Source: Podarcis vaucheri (taxonomy: Eukaryota). From it: DNA of 64,000 nt. Below, in pieces: positions 6,949 through 12,008 of this stretch. The number at the start of each line of letters is the position of its first letter. Position 1 is the first letter of the stretch. A program made the position numbers. The stretch lies in assembly GCA_965113315.1 (NCBI GenBank), contig OZ220369.1; one strand, written 5' to 3'.

Positions 6949-6995
<47 letters not shown>

Positions 6996-9900
6996 GGTTT
7001 TGGTGTCTTCGGGTGTCTTCCCGTGTAAGAGTCGGGGTGTCTGTGCGACGTTTCGACGAGGTCTCACTCGTCATCTTCAGGCTGGTGCTTTCGGCTTCTT
7101 GTTACTGGAACAGAGCAGAGTCTGGTGTTTGAGTTCCTATAAATACTGTTGAGGGGTGTGGTGTATAGCCTCCAACGTTCTGGGCAGAGAGGAAGTTCCT
7201 AGATTAGTGTGCCTTTTCTTCTTTTGTTCCTTAATTACTTGAGGGATATCTTGAGTGATTTCATGAGTGATATTCTGAATACCACTGGGTGGGTCATTAA
7301 GTGTAGATTAGTTGCTAAAGCTTTCGTGTCTTGACCTCTTGAGCTTGTGAAGAGTTTTTCTGAGAAGATGGCTGTGCTGCATTTAGTTGTGCTCTGGCTT
7401 GGCTTCGTGTATAGGGGCGAGCTGTGGTTTTGTGCCTTGTGCCAGCCAGATCTGTGTAGGGATTGCAGGGGGGTGCAGCATCCGGAGGTGCCACTATAGT
7501 TTGGCTACTGGATGGAGTCTGTAATATGTCTGTGGAGAGGGTCTGGGTTTGGGTCTGGTGTGGTTGATTGGTGACGGCGTTCTGTGTGCCTCTGGTTCTG
7601 GTGTCGGTTTTTGTGGGGAGGGCTAATTTCCAGATGTCTGGCAGGCGGGACGTGTCGTCACGCTTGTTCATGTTGTGAGGGTGTTTCTCTATCTCGATGG
7701 CTTCCATGATTATTCTCTTGTGGTGATGTTCCATGTTAAAGAGCAATTTGGAATCTGCAAAATTAATTTCGTGTCCTGTTTCTTTCATGTGTTGGAAAAG
7801 AGAGGAAGTTTTTTCTTCTTTTTTGACGGCATTCTTGTGTTCTGCGATACGTGCATTTATTCGTCTGTTTGTTTGTCCAATGTACGTGGCTGGGCAGACT
7901 TTGCAGGGTATTTCATAGACCCCTTGGTTTTCCAGCTGGATTTTGTCTTTTGGGTTTCTGAGGATATTGGCTATTTTTTGGTTGGTGCAGAAGGCTGTTT
8001 TGATATTGTGTTTATGGAGGATTTTGCTGATTTTGTCTGTAGTGCCCTTGATATAAGGAAGGAGGGCCATGCCATTGTTTTCTTCTGTGTCTTGGTTTTT
8101 GGGGGGTGTTTCTTTTTGGATTAGCTTTGTAACCCTGTTTTTCTGGTATCCATTGGCGATTAACACATTTGAGAGATTCTGTAACTCAGTTGTCAAGTGG
8201 TCTTTGTCAGCCAGGCGTTTGGTTCTGGAGATGAGAGTCTTGGCTACGGAGTTTATTTGTGCAGGGTGGTGGTGTGATTGTGCATGTAAGTAGCGGTTGG
8301 TGTGTGTTTTTTTCTGGTAGATAGTGTGTCCTAGGGAGCCATCAATACCTACATCCCGATGACCTACTTGTGAGCTTCGATGTTGTATCTCTCTTCACTC
8401 AAGTGCCCATTAATGAAGCCTTGACAGCCATTCAAAACAAATACAACCCCCCCAAATACATCCTGGACCTGACCAACCACTGCCTAACCAACACATACTT
8501 CATCCACAATGGACAAAGATACAAACAGATAGAAGGAGCACCTATGGGATCACCCCTCTCACCGGTCATCGCAAATTTGTACATGGAACACTTTGAAACC
8601 AATGCTTTAGACAAGTCAGAACACAAACCCAAACTTTGGCTCAGATATGTTGACGACACCTTTGTAATTTGGCCACACGGGAAAGAAAAACTAGATAGCT
8701 TCCTCACACATCTCAACAGCCTACACCCCAAAATACAATTCACTATGGAAATAGAAGACAACAACCAACTCCCCTTTCTTGACGTCCTAATCTACAAAAA
8801 ACCTGATGGCTCCCTAGGACACACTATCTACCAGAAAAAAACACACACCAACCGCTACTTACATGCACAATCACACCACCACCCTGCACAAATAAACTCC
8901 GTAGCCAAGACTCTCATCTCCAGAACCAAACGCCCGGCTGACAAAGACCACTTGACAACTGAGTTACAGAATCTCTCAAATGTGTTTTTTTTTTTTATAA
9001 TCATATTTATTAAAATTTAACAGAGTAGAAAAGATAAAAAAGATAAAGAAAAGAAAGAAAAAGAGAGACTAGCTTAGACCCTTCTTTTCATAACCTTCTT
9101 TCTGGGACTTCCTCCTTCCCCTCCCGACTGTATTCCCCTTTCCCTAAGTTGGTTCCACAAGTTCTCATCCCCAAATTTAAGCCTAATATATATTACTCAT
9201 AAACCAATTTAAATTTACACAATCTTAACATCACTCCTCGTCTTATAATAAAACAAATTTTTCCCCCAAGATCAGCTCTCATTCCTTCCACGAGTTCCCC
9301 CTTTCTAAAAAAGGAAAAAACGAAAACATATTAGATCAAAGTTATAAAGAATATAAGATAGAATATATAGAAAAGTTCAAAAAATTGGTTACAAAGCCTT
9401 TGGATTCTAGGGTTCCCCCTCCCTTCCCCGGTTTTGATTCCCCATGTCCATTTGTCTGTATGTTGTCGGCCTGGAGATCTTAAGTCCACAGCCAAATTTT
9501 TCTCAGTCCATCTTGCCGGTTTCTTCAGATTTGGTTGTTTTAATAATATTTAACTTCATAAATCCAGTCTAATAGAGGCCTTTAATTTTCCTTAATCTTT
9601 TGTTGCTCCTCCCGTTGTTCTTTCCGTGTCGTATTTAGTCATTTACTCTTTTGCTTCTTGTTTTCTCCGGTTTCTGTCTTGTTCAGCTGTCAAAACATTC
9701 TTGTTTCAAAACTTAGTGTCTCTACAGAGGTTTGTTATTCAGGGACAAGGACTTACGTCCAGTTCCTTTCTTGCTTCAATAGAAGATTCTATTGTATTAT
9801 GGTCACCTCTGTAGACAAAATAATATTTCAGTTCTGCAGCTTTCCCAAGAGATAAGACCTATGCACATCCCAGAGTAGTTTTCCACATACGACACTTGTA

Positions 9901-11942
9901 ATGTCCCGAAACCCCTCTAGGGGGATTGCAATAACTTTGTATCCTCTAATCCAAAAGTCAATTTGTTGTTTCTTTTTCCCCGACAGTTTATATCCATATT
10001 TATATCAAATTGTAGCAAAATTAACCAGCAAAGAAAAACTTGTAGCAAAGTCCTCTTTATATTTTCCAGCTTTGACAGCTCCTTTGGCAGCTGTCAAATT
10101 CTCCATCTCTCTTCGCCAGGCTCTCCGAATCGCCCCGGTTCCCAGGGGGGGGGGTTGTCTTTTTCCTCTCACCCTCAACTCTTCTCCTCCAGCACAGTTC
10201 TTATAGTTCACATCGTGGAGTTAATAATTTTTGTCATCAATAAACTTCTGAATCGATCTTGGTTTCTCAGTCCTTGTTTTAGCATGTTTACAATCAGGGA
10301 GGGGACTGACTTCCTTTTTGGATCCCCTCCCGCTCGTGCCAAATCCGGAAAAAATTTTCTTTTTTCCTCCTTTTATGCCCGGTTACCCAATTACTCACGG
10401 GTTGTTGTTAATTGTCCGAATTTTCTTTGGAAGAAGCCAGCGCTCTCCGCCGGATGGCATGCGGCTGCGCCCGGCAGGGGAAGCGGAGGACTCAAAGCAC
10501 CACGCCACTCCCCGGCGCCCGATCCGTAGCCTTTAAAAAGGCTCCTTCACAAGCCGGGAGGGCGATAACGGTGCCAGCCGAGTCACCATGTCCACGGGAT
10601 CCGTTCCCGTGGTTTTTGAGGGTCCCCGCGTCGCCGGCGCGGTAGGACCCAACCCCTGCCGAGCCGACTCCCTCCGGAGCTCGGAGGGAGTCCGCCATTC
10701 GGCGATGGCGCTAACCCGGAAGTCTCGAATCTCTCAAATGTGTTAATCGCCAATGGATACCAGAAAAACAGGGTTACGAAGCTAATCCAAAAAGAAACAC
10801 CCCCCAAAAACCAAGACACAGAAGAAAACAATGGCATGGCCCTCCTTCCTTATATCAAGGGCACTACAGACAAAATCAGCAAAATCCTCCATAAACACAA
10901 TATCAAAACAGCCTTCTGCACCAACCAAAAAATAGCCAATATCCTCAGAAACCCAAAAGACAAAATCCAGCTGGAAAACCAAGGGGTCTATGAAATACCC
11001 TGCAAAGTCTGCCCAGCCACGTACATTGGACAAACAAACAGACGAATAAATGCACGTATCGCAGAACACAAGAATGCCGTCAAAAAAGAAGAAAAAACTT
11101 CCTCTCTTTTCCAACACATGAAAGAAACAGGACACGAAATTAATTTTGCAGATTCCAAATTGCTCTTTAACATGGAACATCACCACAAGAGAATAATCAT
11201 GGAAGCCATCGAGATAGAGAAACACCCTCACAACATGAACAAGCGTGACGACACGTCCCGCCTGCCAGACATCTGGAAATTAGCCCTCCCCACAAAAACC
11301 GACACCAGAACCAGAGGCACACAGAACGCCATCACCAATCAACCACACCAGACCCAAACCCAGACCCTCTCCACAGACATATTACAGACTCCATCCAGTA
11401 GCCAAACTATAGTGGCACCTCCGGATGCTGCACCCCCCTGCAATCCCTACACAGATCTGGCTGGCACAAGGCACAAAACCACAGCTCGCCCCTATACACG
11501 AAGCCAAGCCAGAGCACAACTAAATGCAGCACAGCCATCTTCTCAGAAAAACTCTTCACAAGCTCAAGAGGTCAAGACACGAAAGCTTTAGCAACTAATC
11601 TACACTTAATGACCCACCCAGTGGTATTCAGAATATCACTCATGAAATCACCCAAGATATCCCTCAAGTAATTAAGGAACAAAAGAAGAAAAGGCACACT
11701 AATCTAGGAACTTCCTCTCTGCCCAGAACGTTGGAGGCTATATACCACACCCCTCCACAGTATTTATAGGAACTCAAACACCAGATTCTGCTCTGTTCCA
11801 GTAACAAGAAGCCGAAAGCACCAGCCTGAAGATGACGAGTGAGACCTCGTCGAAACGTCGCACAGACACCCCGACTCTTACACGGGAAGACACCCGAAGA
11901 CACCAAAACCTGCATTCCTGTACCCGTGAAAATCTACGAAAG

Positions 11943-12008
<66 letters not shown>

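What the first reader, a model, noticed from the sequence alone, without database searches (positions are those of the whole stretch)
6991..11945. Young Penelope-like element arranged as a ~1.35 kb near-perfect inverted repeat with both 3' ends facing outward
Seen: 6991..8344 is the reverse complement of 8804..8986+10745..11915. I counted about 7 substitutions by eye. The 459-bp spacer (8345..8803) holds the RT core (SFDVVSLF, GSPLS, YVDD). The two copies join head-to-head at 8344/8345, and the left 3' end is about 30 nt shorter than the right. Established: PLEs encode RT + GIY-YIG and often carry an inverted partial copy. Inference: a single integration event in which both ends of a break in (TA)n primed cDNA synthesis, or a template switch, preserved almost unmutated. 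The frames have no stops, so an active source family probably exists.
Basis: partly seen in the sequence, partly recalled or inferred. Interest (0 to 1): 0.75.

Follow-up and report, generated by a model that had tools for sequence, protein, structure and literature searches.

The report
Lizard Penelope retrotransposon, head-to-head inverted insertion
This is a real, young insertion of a Penelope-like retrotransposon into a (TA)n microsatellite of a lizard genome, laid down as two 5'-truncated copies facing head-to-head; the layout is the textbook one for this class of element, so it is a clean example rather than a new kind of thing.

Summary
6991-8344 is the exact reverse complement of 8804-8986 plus 10745-11915: 1,354 nt, 7 substitutions, no indels.

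The arms are the 3' parts of two copies of one Penelope-like element (PLE) with RT and GIY-YIG domains. The left copy is on the minus strand (1,354 nt). The right copy is on the plus strand (about 1.84 kb) and reaches 459 nt further 5' into the RT core. Both 3' ends abut perfect (TA)n.

The right end carries an extra 28-33 nt "tail". The right arm is split by a later 1,740-bp poly(A)-tailed insertion with a perfect 18-bp target-site duplication.

Each arm holds a minimal hammerhead motif, with an ATG at the start of stem II. The two 3' ends lie +82 to +84 and +112 to +115 from that ATG. That is close to the published Anolis PLE, where reverse transcription starts 111-118 nt into the ORF, the tail lies between two start sites, and both target strands are cut and extended.

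An inverted 5'-truncated partner, a one-sided 30-40 bp tail and an AT-rich or microsatellite target are all published PLE features.

Best reading: one integration primed from both strands. Nearest named relative: a Podarcis muralis protein (97-98% identity). Novelty is low.

The parts
6546..6593 (.). (TA)24, the leftmost block of the target microsatellite. It is separated from the next block by a SINE.
   Evidence: TRF, 100% matches.
6594..6950 (-). SINE copy that splits the (TA)n. It is context, not part of the PLE.
   Evidence: Six self-BLAST alignments to other places in the window at 75-84% identity, two of them adjoining, so about five further copies. The minus orientation and the SINE label are my reading of the sequence; ARAGORN and Rfam call nothing there.
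6951..6992 (.). (AT)21 abutting the 3' end of the left PLE copy. The last 2 nt are ambiguous with the element end.
   Evidence: TRF, 100% matches; flank printed.
6991..8344 (-). Left PLE copy: the 3'-terminal 1,354 nt, 5'-truncated and without the tail. It holds the ORF remnant 7315-8343 (342 codons plus stop), the GIY-YIG core at about 7804-7923, and the minimal hammerhead motif at 7047-7080.
8345..8986 (+). Right PLE copy, first piece. 8345-8803 is the 459 nt that the left copy lacks (RT core; RVT_1 match at about 8361-8720). 8804-8986 is the inner end of the inverted repeat.
   Evidence: A protein alignment to a Podarcis muralis relative starts at the codon spanning the junction.
8969..8986 (.). 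Target-site duplication of the nested insertion, copy 1 (GAATCTCTCAAATGTGTT).
   Evidence: Identical 18/18 to 10727-10744.
8987..10726 (-). Nested 1,740-bp retroposed insertion, non-coding as far as tested. Its poly(A) tail reads as a T run of 10-12 on the plus strand at its left end. Its 5' end (10300-10726) is 60% GC.
   Evidence: 0 of 8 ORFs of at least 60 aa have a Pfam match at E<=0.1. No second copy in the window.
10727..10744 (.). Target-site duplication of the nested insertion, copy 2.
10745..11915 (+). Right PLE copy, second piece. It holds the RT C-terminal linker, the GIY-YIG core (about 10983-11102), the stop codon at 11589-11591, and then a 324-nt terminal region equivalent to a pseudo-LTR.
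11826..11859 (+). Minimal hammerhead motif: CUGAAGA, one unpaired U, a 6-bp helix II with a 6-nt loop, then GAAA-CG-UC. The predicted cut is after 11859.
   Evidence: Pattern search. A stricter structural scan finds 2 sites in the window, both in the PLE arms, and 0 in 200 shuffled windows. Rfam finds no hammerhead.
11832..11946 (+). ATG at the start of hammerhead stem II. It opens a frame (MTSETSSKRR...) that runs to the element end and is read as the start of the next tandem unit's ORF.
   Evidence: The geometry matches the published Anolis element.
11916..11946 (+). The 'tail': 28-33 nt present only at the right 3' end.
   Evidence: Published tails are 30-40 bp and 31 bp.
11946..12005 (.). 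(AT)30 abutting the right 3' end.
   Evidence: TRF, 100% matches.

Best explanation
One integration of a Penelope/Poseidon-type PLE into a (TA)n microsatellite of a lacertid-like lizard genome.

Proposed sequence of events. The element's GIY-YIG endonuclease cut both strands of the AT-rich target. Each exposed 3'-OH primed reverse transcription of element RNA, starting at one of two neighbouring internal start sites. One site is about +83 and the other about +114 from the ORF start that lies inside the terminal repeat. Both cDNAs stopped early, at 1,354 nt and about 1.84 kb. They were then joined head-to-head with little or no filler.

Result. Two 5'-truncated copies with 3' ends facing outward, a 459-nt asymmetric middle, and a roughly 30-nt tail at one end only. 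Later, an unrelated poly(A)-tailed sequence retroposed into the right arm.

Shown here: the anatomy, the domains, the hammerhead motif, and the positions of the ends.

Inferred: that it was one event, that both strands primed, and how the two cDNAs were joined.
For: Anatomy. Domains.

Junction. There is no (TA)n and no appreciable filler at 8344/8345. Protein homology to P0105 starts at the codon that spans the junction, and to P0085 within 4 nt of it.

Flanks. Both outer ends abut perfect (TA)n, and these are the only (TA)n arrays in the window (3 of 15 TRF rows).

Positions of the ends. They lie at +82 to +84 and +112 to +115 from the ATG at 11832, and the hammerhead cut is 25 nt after that start codon. 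In the Anolis PLE the cut is 26 nt after the start codon, reverse transcription starts 111-118 nt into the ORF in an AC-rich stem-loop, the tail equals the stretch between two start sites, and both strands are cleaved and extended (PMC11167929, main text). Here 11860-11947 is 69% A+C against 51% for the window.

Literature. An adjacent inverted 5'-truncated copy and a one-sided 30-40 bp tail are described as frequent in PLEs, and (TA)n or AT-rich sequence as a preferred target (PMC8557442 passages; PMC3846280 passages).

Arm similarity. The arms differ at 2 of 342 compared codons. The nearest other family members available are 92-97% identical in protein.

Direction of the differences. The two differences I could polarise most firmly are both derived in the right arm: 8935 (none of 10 homologues has its proline) and 11743 (P0001). 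At 7575/11331 the left arm looks derived, but on weaker grounds (P0105 agrees with the right arm; P0001 has a third residue).

Order of events. The nested insertion is in one arm only, so the repeat predates it.
Against: No other DNA copy of the family could be examined. It is therefore not shown that +83 and +114 are this family's usual start sites, nor that arm divergence is below the family's DNA average.

The relatives used as a yardstick may come from another species.

Gene conversion between the arms could make them look younger and more alike than they are.

Three of the 7 differences lie in CpG dinucleotides (68 of 1,354 positions; binomial p=0.004). For at least one of them (8935) the CpG-bearing state is the derived one, so simple CpG decay after insertion does not explain the pattern.

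Four of the 7 differences fall in the 324 nt after the stop codon against 3 in 1,030 coding nt (Fisher p=0.06). This is a weak hint that part of the difference came from two slightly different templates.

The published in vitro work reports no difference in start-site use between top and bottom strands. It therefore does not by itself predict one site per strand.
Confidence: 0.6

Rival explanations
1. One integration event, but a single cDNA. Reverse transcription primed at the right-hand nick ran about 1.84 kb. The cDNA 3' end then snapped back (or the RT switched template) onto the same cDNA 459 nt behind its tip and copied it back outward, making the left arm. This is the self-priming idea proposed for PLEs.
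For: Self-priming and template jumps were proposed to explain PLE inverted repeats (PMC3846280 discussion). The strand polarity of the observed structure fits this model as well as it fits double priming (my reasoning). The arms would be identical at birth, which is compatible with 7 later substitutions.
Against: Copying the first cDNA back to its 5' end should reproduce the tail and run into the flank, yet the left arm stops about 30 nt short, at the spacing expected of an alternative RT start site. No palindrome sits at the junction, whereas palindromes were the basis of the self-priming proposal. The arms are separated by 459 nt, and the bases at the would-be priming point are not complementary.
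Confidence: 0.2
2. Two independent insertions of the same young family into the same microsatellite, in opposite orientations, which happen to abut.
For: PLEs prefer (TA)n and AT-rich targets, so a microsatellite can be hit twice; a SINE also landed in this one. There are 7 differences between the arms, with a weak excess outside the coding part (p=0.06).
Against: No (TA)n is left between the two 5' ends. The second insertion would have had to land exactly at the border of the first, among roughly 150 bp of (TA)n now present, or delete the rest. The pairing is described as a frequent, systematic PLE feature. The arms are far closer to each other (2 of 342 codons) than to the other family members available (92-97% protein identity).
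Confidence: 0.07
3. A DNA-level inverted duplication (a replication or repair template switch) of part of a single PLE copy, made after insertion.
For: It would give near-identical arms. Microsatellites and inverted repeats are fragile sites (general knowledge, no call).
Against: The duplicated arm ends at (TA)n without the tail, at a PLE-typical spacing. A segmental copy would be expected to carry the tail or arbitrary flank.
Confidence: 0.05
4. An assembly or fold-back read artefact.
For: PLE tandem and inverted structures are known to trouble assemblies. No reads were available to me.
Against: The arms are asymmetric (459-nt middle, one-sided tail). They differ by 7 substitutions and no indel despite many homopolymer runs. 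A 1,740-bp insertion with a perfect 18-bp duplication sits in one arm only. Unique, different sequence flanks each side. There are no N bases in the window.
Confidence: 0.03

Closest known systems
Poseidon of Anolis carolinensis (PAc), Penelope/Poseidon clade PLE (Frangieh et al. 2024, PMC11167929, main text read)
   Same: RT plus a C-terminal GIY-YIG domain. A hammerhead motif in the terminal repeat, with the ORF start at stem II. The predicted ribozyme cut is 25 nt after the start codon here and 26 nt in PAc. The distal 3' end is at +112 to +115 here, and PAc RT starts at 111-118. The tail lies between two start sites. The target is AT-rich. Cutting and extension of both strands offers a direct route to head-to-head copies.
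   Different: Only about 55% protein identity to the A. carolinensis PLE proteins found (P0206). I did not verify that P0206 is PAc. The copies here are 5'-truncated and dead. I could not see the PAc sequence itself because supplements are closed, so the match is one of geometry, not of aligned nucleotides.
Predicted protein LOC144326219 of Podarcis muralis (P0105)
   Same: 97-98% identical over the RT piece (208 of 214 residues) and 93% over the C-terminal part. It is evidently the same PLE family. Its first 37 residues are an antisense reading of the RT region (36 of 37 identical to the window's antisense frame). That gene model was therefore also built across an inverted PLE fragment upstream of a sense copy.
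   Different: It is a gene-model protein, possibly spliced, not a curated element. Its C-terminal frame differs from the window's after ...NSSQ.
Penelope of Drosophila virilis and Pen2a of Adineta vaga (PMC3846280, PMC4209133, passages read)
   Same: Inverted terminal repeat copies, an optional 31-bp or 30-40-bp tail at one end, AT-rich targets, and a minimal hammerhead with a long helix II, a bulged base before it, a palindromic helix III and a very short helix I.
   Different: Those descriptions are of full-length units with direct plus inverted pseudo-LTRs of about 200 bp. Here the inverted part is 1.35 kb because both copies are long 5'-truncated fragments, and there is no full-length unit.
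L1 twin priming
   Same: A second priming event on the other strand of the target during one retrotransposition event.
   Different: As I recall it, L1 twin priming gives an inverted 5' segment next to a 3' segment of one copy, not two copies of the same 3' end facing outward. It also uses an AP-type endonuclease and poly(A) priming.

Membership tests
Penelope-like elements (EN+ PLEs) | Reverse transcriptase domain | tested here: met
   Pfam RVT_1 E=8.3e-13, 49 bits against a cut-off of 29.6, residues 13-132 of ORF 8325-9020. The match starts at profile position 68 of 205, so the N-terminal RT motifs are missing through truncation.
Penelope-like elements (EN+ PLEs) | [quoted passage not shown] | tested here: met
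   Pfam GIY-YIG E about 5e-4 in both arms, but 20.8 bits is below the curated cut-off of 22.6. The motif GVYEIPCKVCPATYIGQT is visible in both ORFs. Several relatives carry precomputed PF01541.
Penelope-like elements (EN+ PLEs) | Hammerhead ribozyme motif in the terminal repeat | tested here: inconclusive
   The core boxes, a 6-bp helix II, a bulged U, the G10.1-C11.1 pair and a palindromic CG at 15.2/16.2 all fit the published PLE minimal-hammerhead description. The motif occurs only in the two arms and in 0 of 200 shuffles. However, no Rfam hammerhead model matches even at E<=10. I see only 2 contiguous pairs for helix I, by eye. Cleavage is untested.
Penelope-like elements (EN+ PLEs) | Adjacent inverted 5'-truncated copy (head-to-head) | tested here: met
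   described as frequent in PLEs.
Penelope-like elements (EN+ PLEs) | 30-40 bp tail at one end only | tested here: met
   28-33 nt at the right end only; literature.
Penelope-like elements (EN+ PLEs) | AT-rich or microsatellite target | tested here: met
   Perfect (TA)n on both sides; literature.
Penelope-like elements (EN+ PLEs) | Direct pseudo-LTRs (partial tandem) around a full-length ORF | tested here: not met
   Both copies are 5'-truncated. At least about 200-250 residues of ORF are missing upstream of the right copy, judged against P0105 and P0085. No direct repeat of the terminal region is present. This describes the state of these copies and is not evidence against family membership.
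Penelope/Poseidon clade (as against Neptune/Nematis) | No extra CX2-5CxxC zinc-finger-like motif upstream of GIY-YIG (criterion from PMC8557442) | tested here: inconclusive
   By eye there is a single cysteine in the about 60 residues upstream of GVYEIPC, and the geometry resembles the Anolis Poseidon element. No phylogeny with reference clade members was made because no reference sequences were available.
L1-type retroposition (for the nested 1,740-bp insertion only) | Poly(A) tail, target-site duplication of about 7-20 bp, and a TT/AA-like nick site | tested here: met
   A T run of 10-12 on the plus strand, an 18/18 duplication, and target ...GTGTT/AATCG.... The L1 criteria themselves are recalled. 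The identity of the inserted sequence is unknown.

The most novel reading that the evidence does not exclude
This locus is a near-pristine natural product of concerted double-strand target-primed reverse transcription by a PLE. In one event, the two strands used the two alternative internal RT start sites (about +83 on one strand, about +114 on the other). The two cDNAs were then joined tip to tip with 0-3 nt of overlap. If inverted pairs across the family regularly show one tailed and one tail-less end, the one-sided tail would be a signature of a dimeric enzyme whose two halves start at different sites. The in vitro work did not resolve this point.
Probability: 0.4. Interest if true: 0.35.

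Novelty: new member of a known kind. Interest (0 to 1): 0.2.

Why it matters
How PLEs integrate remains the least understood mechanism among the major retrotransposon classes. The 2024 in vitro study ends by saying that the steps after first-strand synthesis are not yet validated. Young, barely mutated head-to-head insertions such as this one record those late steps: which start site each strand used, where each cDNA stopped, and how the two were joined. A census of such pairs in a lizard genome with a recently active family could test the double-priming model without biochemistry. As a single locus, though, it adds an example and no new principle. For annotation, it is a reminder that gene predictors build 'proteins' across such inverted pairs, as the Podarcis model P0105 shows.

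Tried and rejected
Rfam. Three scans found no hammerhead or any other credible family: the region at E<=1, the 3' 391 nt at E<=10, and the whole window at gathering scores. The 17 weak hits are microRNA, snoRNA and viral-UTR models; most lie on the (TA)n arrays and all are far below their gathering scores, so I rejected them.

RNA fold. The fold of 11790-11947 is not more stable than shuffles (z=-0.83, 42 of 200 shuffles as good). It gives no independent support for a structured 3' end beyond the helix II hairpin.

Family divergence. A self-BLAST found no other PLE copy in the window, so the family-average DNA divergence could not be measured.

CpG decay. I first read the CpG excess among the differences (3 of 7, p=0.004) as methyl-CpG decay after insertion. 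Polarising with homologues argues against that simple reading: at 8935 the CpG-bearing proline codon is the derived state, since 0 of 10 homologues have proline.

Polarising other differences. Polarising 11756 with P0001 failed because the change is synonymous in that frame. 10778, 11652 and 11786 stayed unpolarised.

Junction microhomology. An early by-eye reading of 1 nt of microhomology came from misreading the ruler by one base. One search shows the next bases are not complementary. A 2-3 nt overlap (CA or CAA at 8343-8345) is possible, but rests only on a glutamine in P0105.

Nested insertion. 0 of 8 ORFs have a Pfam match, and it remains unidentified.

Not checked. The bacterial and archaeal genome collection was not searched because it cannot hold a lizard element. 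Supplements of PMC11167929 (PAc sequence, start-site figures) and PMC8557442 were closed, so the match to PAc is by reported distances only.
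Full report
**1. Observation**

The window has no N bases. The repeat finder reports two inverted pairs, 6991-8179 / 10727-11915 (1,189 nt) and 8162-8344 / 8804-8986 (183 nt), both 99% complementary. Their 18-nt overlap is a duplicated target site. When it is counted once, the reverse complement of 6991-8344 matches 8804-8986 + 10745-11915 over 1,354 nt, with exactly 7 substitutions and no indel. 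Six are transitions and one is a transversion. The next base pair inward (8345 A, 8803 C) is not complementary, so the arms end at 8344 and 8804. A self-BLAST finds no further copy in the 64 kb. My own first by-eye coordinates were off by one base and were corrected.

**2. What the pieces are**

- **Right copy.** ORF 8325-9020 (+) carries LVSFDVVSLFT, MGSPLSP and RYVDDTF and matches Pfam RVT_1 (E=8e-13). The match begins at profile position 68 of 205.
- **Left copy.** The left arm, read on the minus strand (7315-8394), is an uninterrupted 359-residue frame, of which 342 codons plus a stop belong to the element.
- **Endonuclease.** Both the left arm and the right-hand piece 10620-11591 match GIY-YIG at E about 5e-4. 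The score of 20.8 bits is just under Pfam's cut-off of 22.6. The GVYEIPCKVCPATYIGQT core is visible.
- **Reading frame.** The right copy stays in frame across the interruption, and the two arms differ at 2 of 342 compared codons, L/P and V/I.
- **Layout.** There are two copies of one RT + GIY-YIG element. One is on the minus strand (1,354 nt) and one on the plus strand (about 1.84 kb without the interruption). Their 5' ends meet at 8344/8345 and their 3' ends face outward.
- **The "spacer".** It is simply the extra 459 nt by which the right copy reaches further 5'.
- **Truncation.** Both copies are 5'-truncated. Relatives P0085 and P0105 have roughly 200-250 more residues upstream.

**3. Relatives**

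A search with the left-arm protein found 104 proteins at E<=0.001. The best named ones are squamate (Ahaetulla, Phrynocephalus, Crotalus, Pseudonaja; 66-79% identity). One unnamed protein is 94% identical, and many insect proteins are around 40-57% identical.

A search for longer proteins with the RT piece found 879 proteins at E<=1e-20, of which 120 were listed. The top hit is a Podarcis muralis predicted protein, P0105. It is 98% identical in the table, 208 of 214 residues by BLASTP, and 93% identical over the C-terminal part. Anolis proteins are about 54-55% identical. The host is therefore most likely a lacertid lizard or a close relative. I did not try to identify it further.

**4. Ends, tail and ribozyme**

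Both outer ends abut perfect (TA)n: 6951-6992 and 11946-12005. A third block, 6546-6593, lies beyond a SINE. These are the only (TA)n arrays among the 15 TRF rows for the window.

The right end has 28-33 nt that the left end lacks.

About 60-90 nt inside each 3' end lies CTGAAGATGACGAGTGAGACCTCGTCGAAACGTC (11826-11859 on the plus strand, 7047-7080 on the minus strand). It has the following features, which are the traits listed for PLE minimal hammerheads (PMC4209133, passages):
- the hammerhead boxes CUGAnGA, GAAA and UC
- one unpaired U before a 6-bp helix II that opens with a G-C pair
- a palindromic CG in place of helix III

A structural scan finds this motif only in the two arms and in 0 of 200 shuffled windows. 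Rfam models do not detect it, and helix I looks only 2 bp long by eye, so I call it a candidate.

[quoted passage not shown] Counted from that ATG, the predicted cut is 25 nt after the start codon. The left-type end is at +82 to +84 and the right end at +112 to +115.

**5. Comparison with what is known**

Craig et al. 2021 (PMC8557442, passages) state three things. PLE insertions are highly 5'-truncated. [quoted passage not shown] A 30-40 bp tail is often present at only one end. They also name (TA)n as a preferred target for Naiad PLEs.

Arkhipova et al. 2013 (PMC3846280, passages) describe a 31-bp optional tail, head-to-head as the commonest inverted form, and AT-rich targets. They propose self-priming.

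Frangieh et al. 2024 (PMC11167929, main text) purified the Anolis carolinensis PLE protein and reported:
- It cleaves and extends both target strands and prefers AT-rich DNA.
- It starts reverse transcription internally, in an AC-rich stem-loop 111-118 nt into the ORF.
- The tail is the stretch between two start sites.
- The ORF starts at hammerhead stem II, with the cut 26 nt after the start codon.

The distances measured here (25 nt; +112 to +115; a second end about 30 nt upstream; 69% A+C in 11860-11947 against 51% window-wide) reproduce that geometry in a family only about 55% identical in protein.

**6. Mechanism**

*Double priming (favoured).* The simplest account is one event in which both strands of the (TA)n were cut and both primed cDNA synthesis, one from each start site. 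The two incomplete cDNAs were then joined. Three points favour it over two separate insertions:
- No (TA)n remains between the 5' ends, and there is no appreciable filler. Homology to P0105 begins at the codon that spans the junction.
- The pairing is systematic in PLEs.
- The arms are much closer to each other than to any other family member I could obtain.

*Snap-back of a single cDNA.* This fits the strand polarity equally well. However, it predicts that the second arm would copy the tail, which it does not. It also lacks the junction palindrome that motivated the model.

*DNA-level duplication or assembly artefact.* Both are unlikely, given the asymmetry, the substitutions without indels, and an insertion confined to one arm.

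*What I could not do.* I could not measure family-wide DNA divergence or end positions, so "one event" remains an inference.

**7. Age and the differences**

Seven differences in 1,354 nt is 0.52%. With a squamate neutral rate of about 1e-9 per site per year (recalled, not checked), that is of the order of 1-4 million years. It would be more if gene conversion has homogenised the arms.

Three of the 7 differences lie in CpG dinucleotides (68 of 1,354 positions; p=0.004). Three are in the 1,030 coding nt and four in the 324 nt after the stop codon (p=0.06).

Homologues polarise three of the seven. The proline codon at 8935 is derived in the right arm, since 0 of 10 homologues have proline. 11743 is derived in the right arm. 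The valine at 7575 is probably derived in the left arm: P0105 has isoleucine and P0001 has asparagine. So the two firmest calls are right-arm changes and one weaker call is a left-arm change, and the CpG excess is not plain CpG decay.

**8. Later event**

8987-10726 (1,740 bp) lies between perfect 18-bp direct repeats. It starts on the plus strand with a T run of 10-12, so it is a poly(A)-tailed insertion on the minus strand, at a ...GTGTT/AATCG... site. Its ORFs have no Pfam match (0 of 8). It is absent from the left arm, so it came after the inverted repeat formed.

**9. Verdict**

The finding is real, accurately described and correctly interpreted. It is the standard architecture of this class of element, and its oddities (the tail, the use of both strands) were explained in print in 2024. 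It is a new member of a known kind. Its value is as a clean specimen for a family-wide test of double priming.

**Left unchecked:** reads, other genomes, the closed metagenome and viral collections, and the papers' supplements.

Noticed in passing
window 8987-10726 (duplications at 8969-8986 and 10727-10744): A 1,740-bp poly(A)-tailed retroposed insertion on the minus strand, nested in the right PLE arm. It has a perfect 18-bp target-site duplication and a 60% GC 5' end that looks promoter- or 5'-UTR-like. No ORF has a Pfam match and its identity is unknown.
   Followed up: partly
window 6594-6950; other copies at 14295-14642, 16489-16802, 18047-18288, 40117-40465, 54348-54548: A SINE-like repeat splits the same (TA)n that the PLE hit. 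The other copies are 75-84% identical, and none of them lies in a (TA)n array. ARAGORN and Rfam call no tRNA-like head in it.
   Followed up: partly
protein P0105 (Podarcis muralis predicted protein), residues 1-37, compared with window 8432-8791 minus-strand frame: The first 37 residues of this database 'protein' are an antisense reading of the PLE RT region (36 of 37 identical). They are followed by sense PLE sequence. The gene model was therefore built across another inverted PLE fragment upstream of a sense copy, possibly through a predicted splice.
   Followed up: partly
window about 11560-11591 and 7315-7346: Both arms share a reading frame after ...NSSQ that ends at ...KTRKL-stop. P0105 and P0001 continue in another frame (SSRGQDTK...), and the P0001 frame runs through the terminal repeat to end inside the hammerhead motif. 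It is not known which C-terminus the active element uses.
   Followed up: partly
(no window coordinates): After squamates, the next closest relatives of this lizard PLE protein are insect proteins (beetles, damselflies, ants, termites; about 50-68% identity over the RT piece). These are closer than, or equal to, the Anolis PLE proteins (about 55%). The patchy distribution was not analysed for horizontal transfer.
   Followed up: no
window 40642-40712 (-): ARAGORN calls a tRNA-Lys (CTT) about 180 nt from a SINE copy and near a (TAT)17 array at 40043-40093. Whether it is a gene or a repeat-derived copy was not examined.
   Followed up: no
window 38781-38819 and 58244-58285: The same 16-nt unit (TGTAACCTGAAGCGTA) forms short tandem arrays at two places about 19 kb apart. 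They are probably parts of another dispersed repeat.
   Followed up: no
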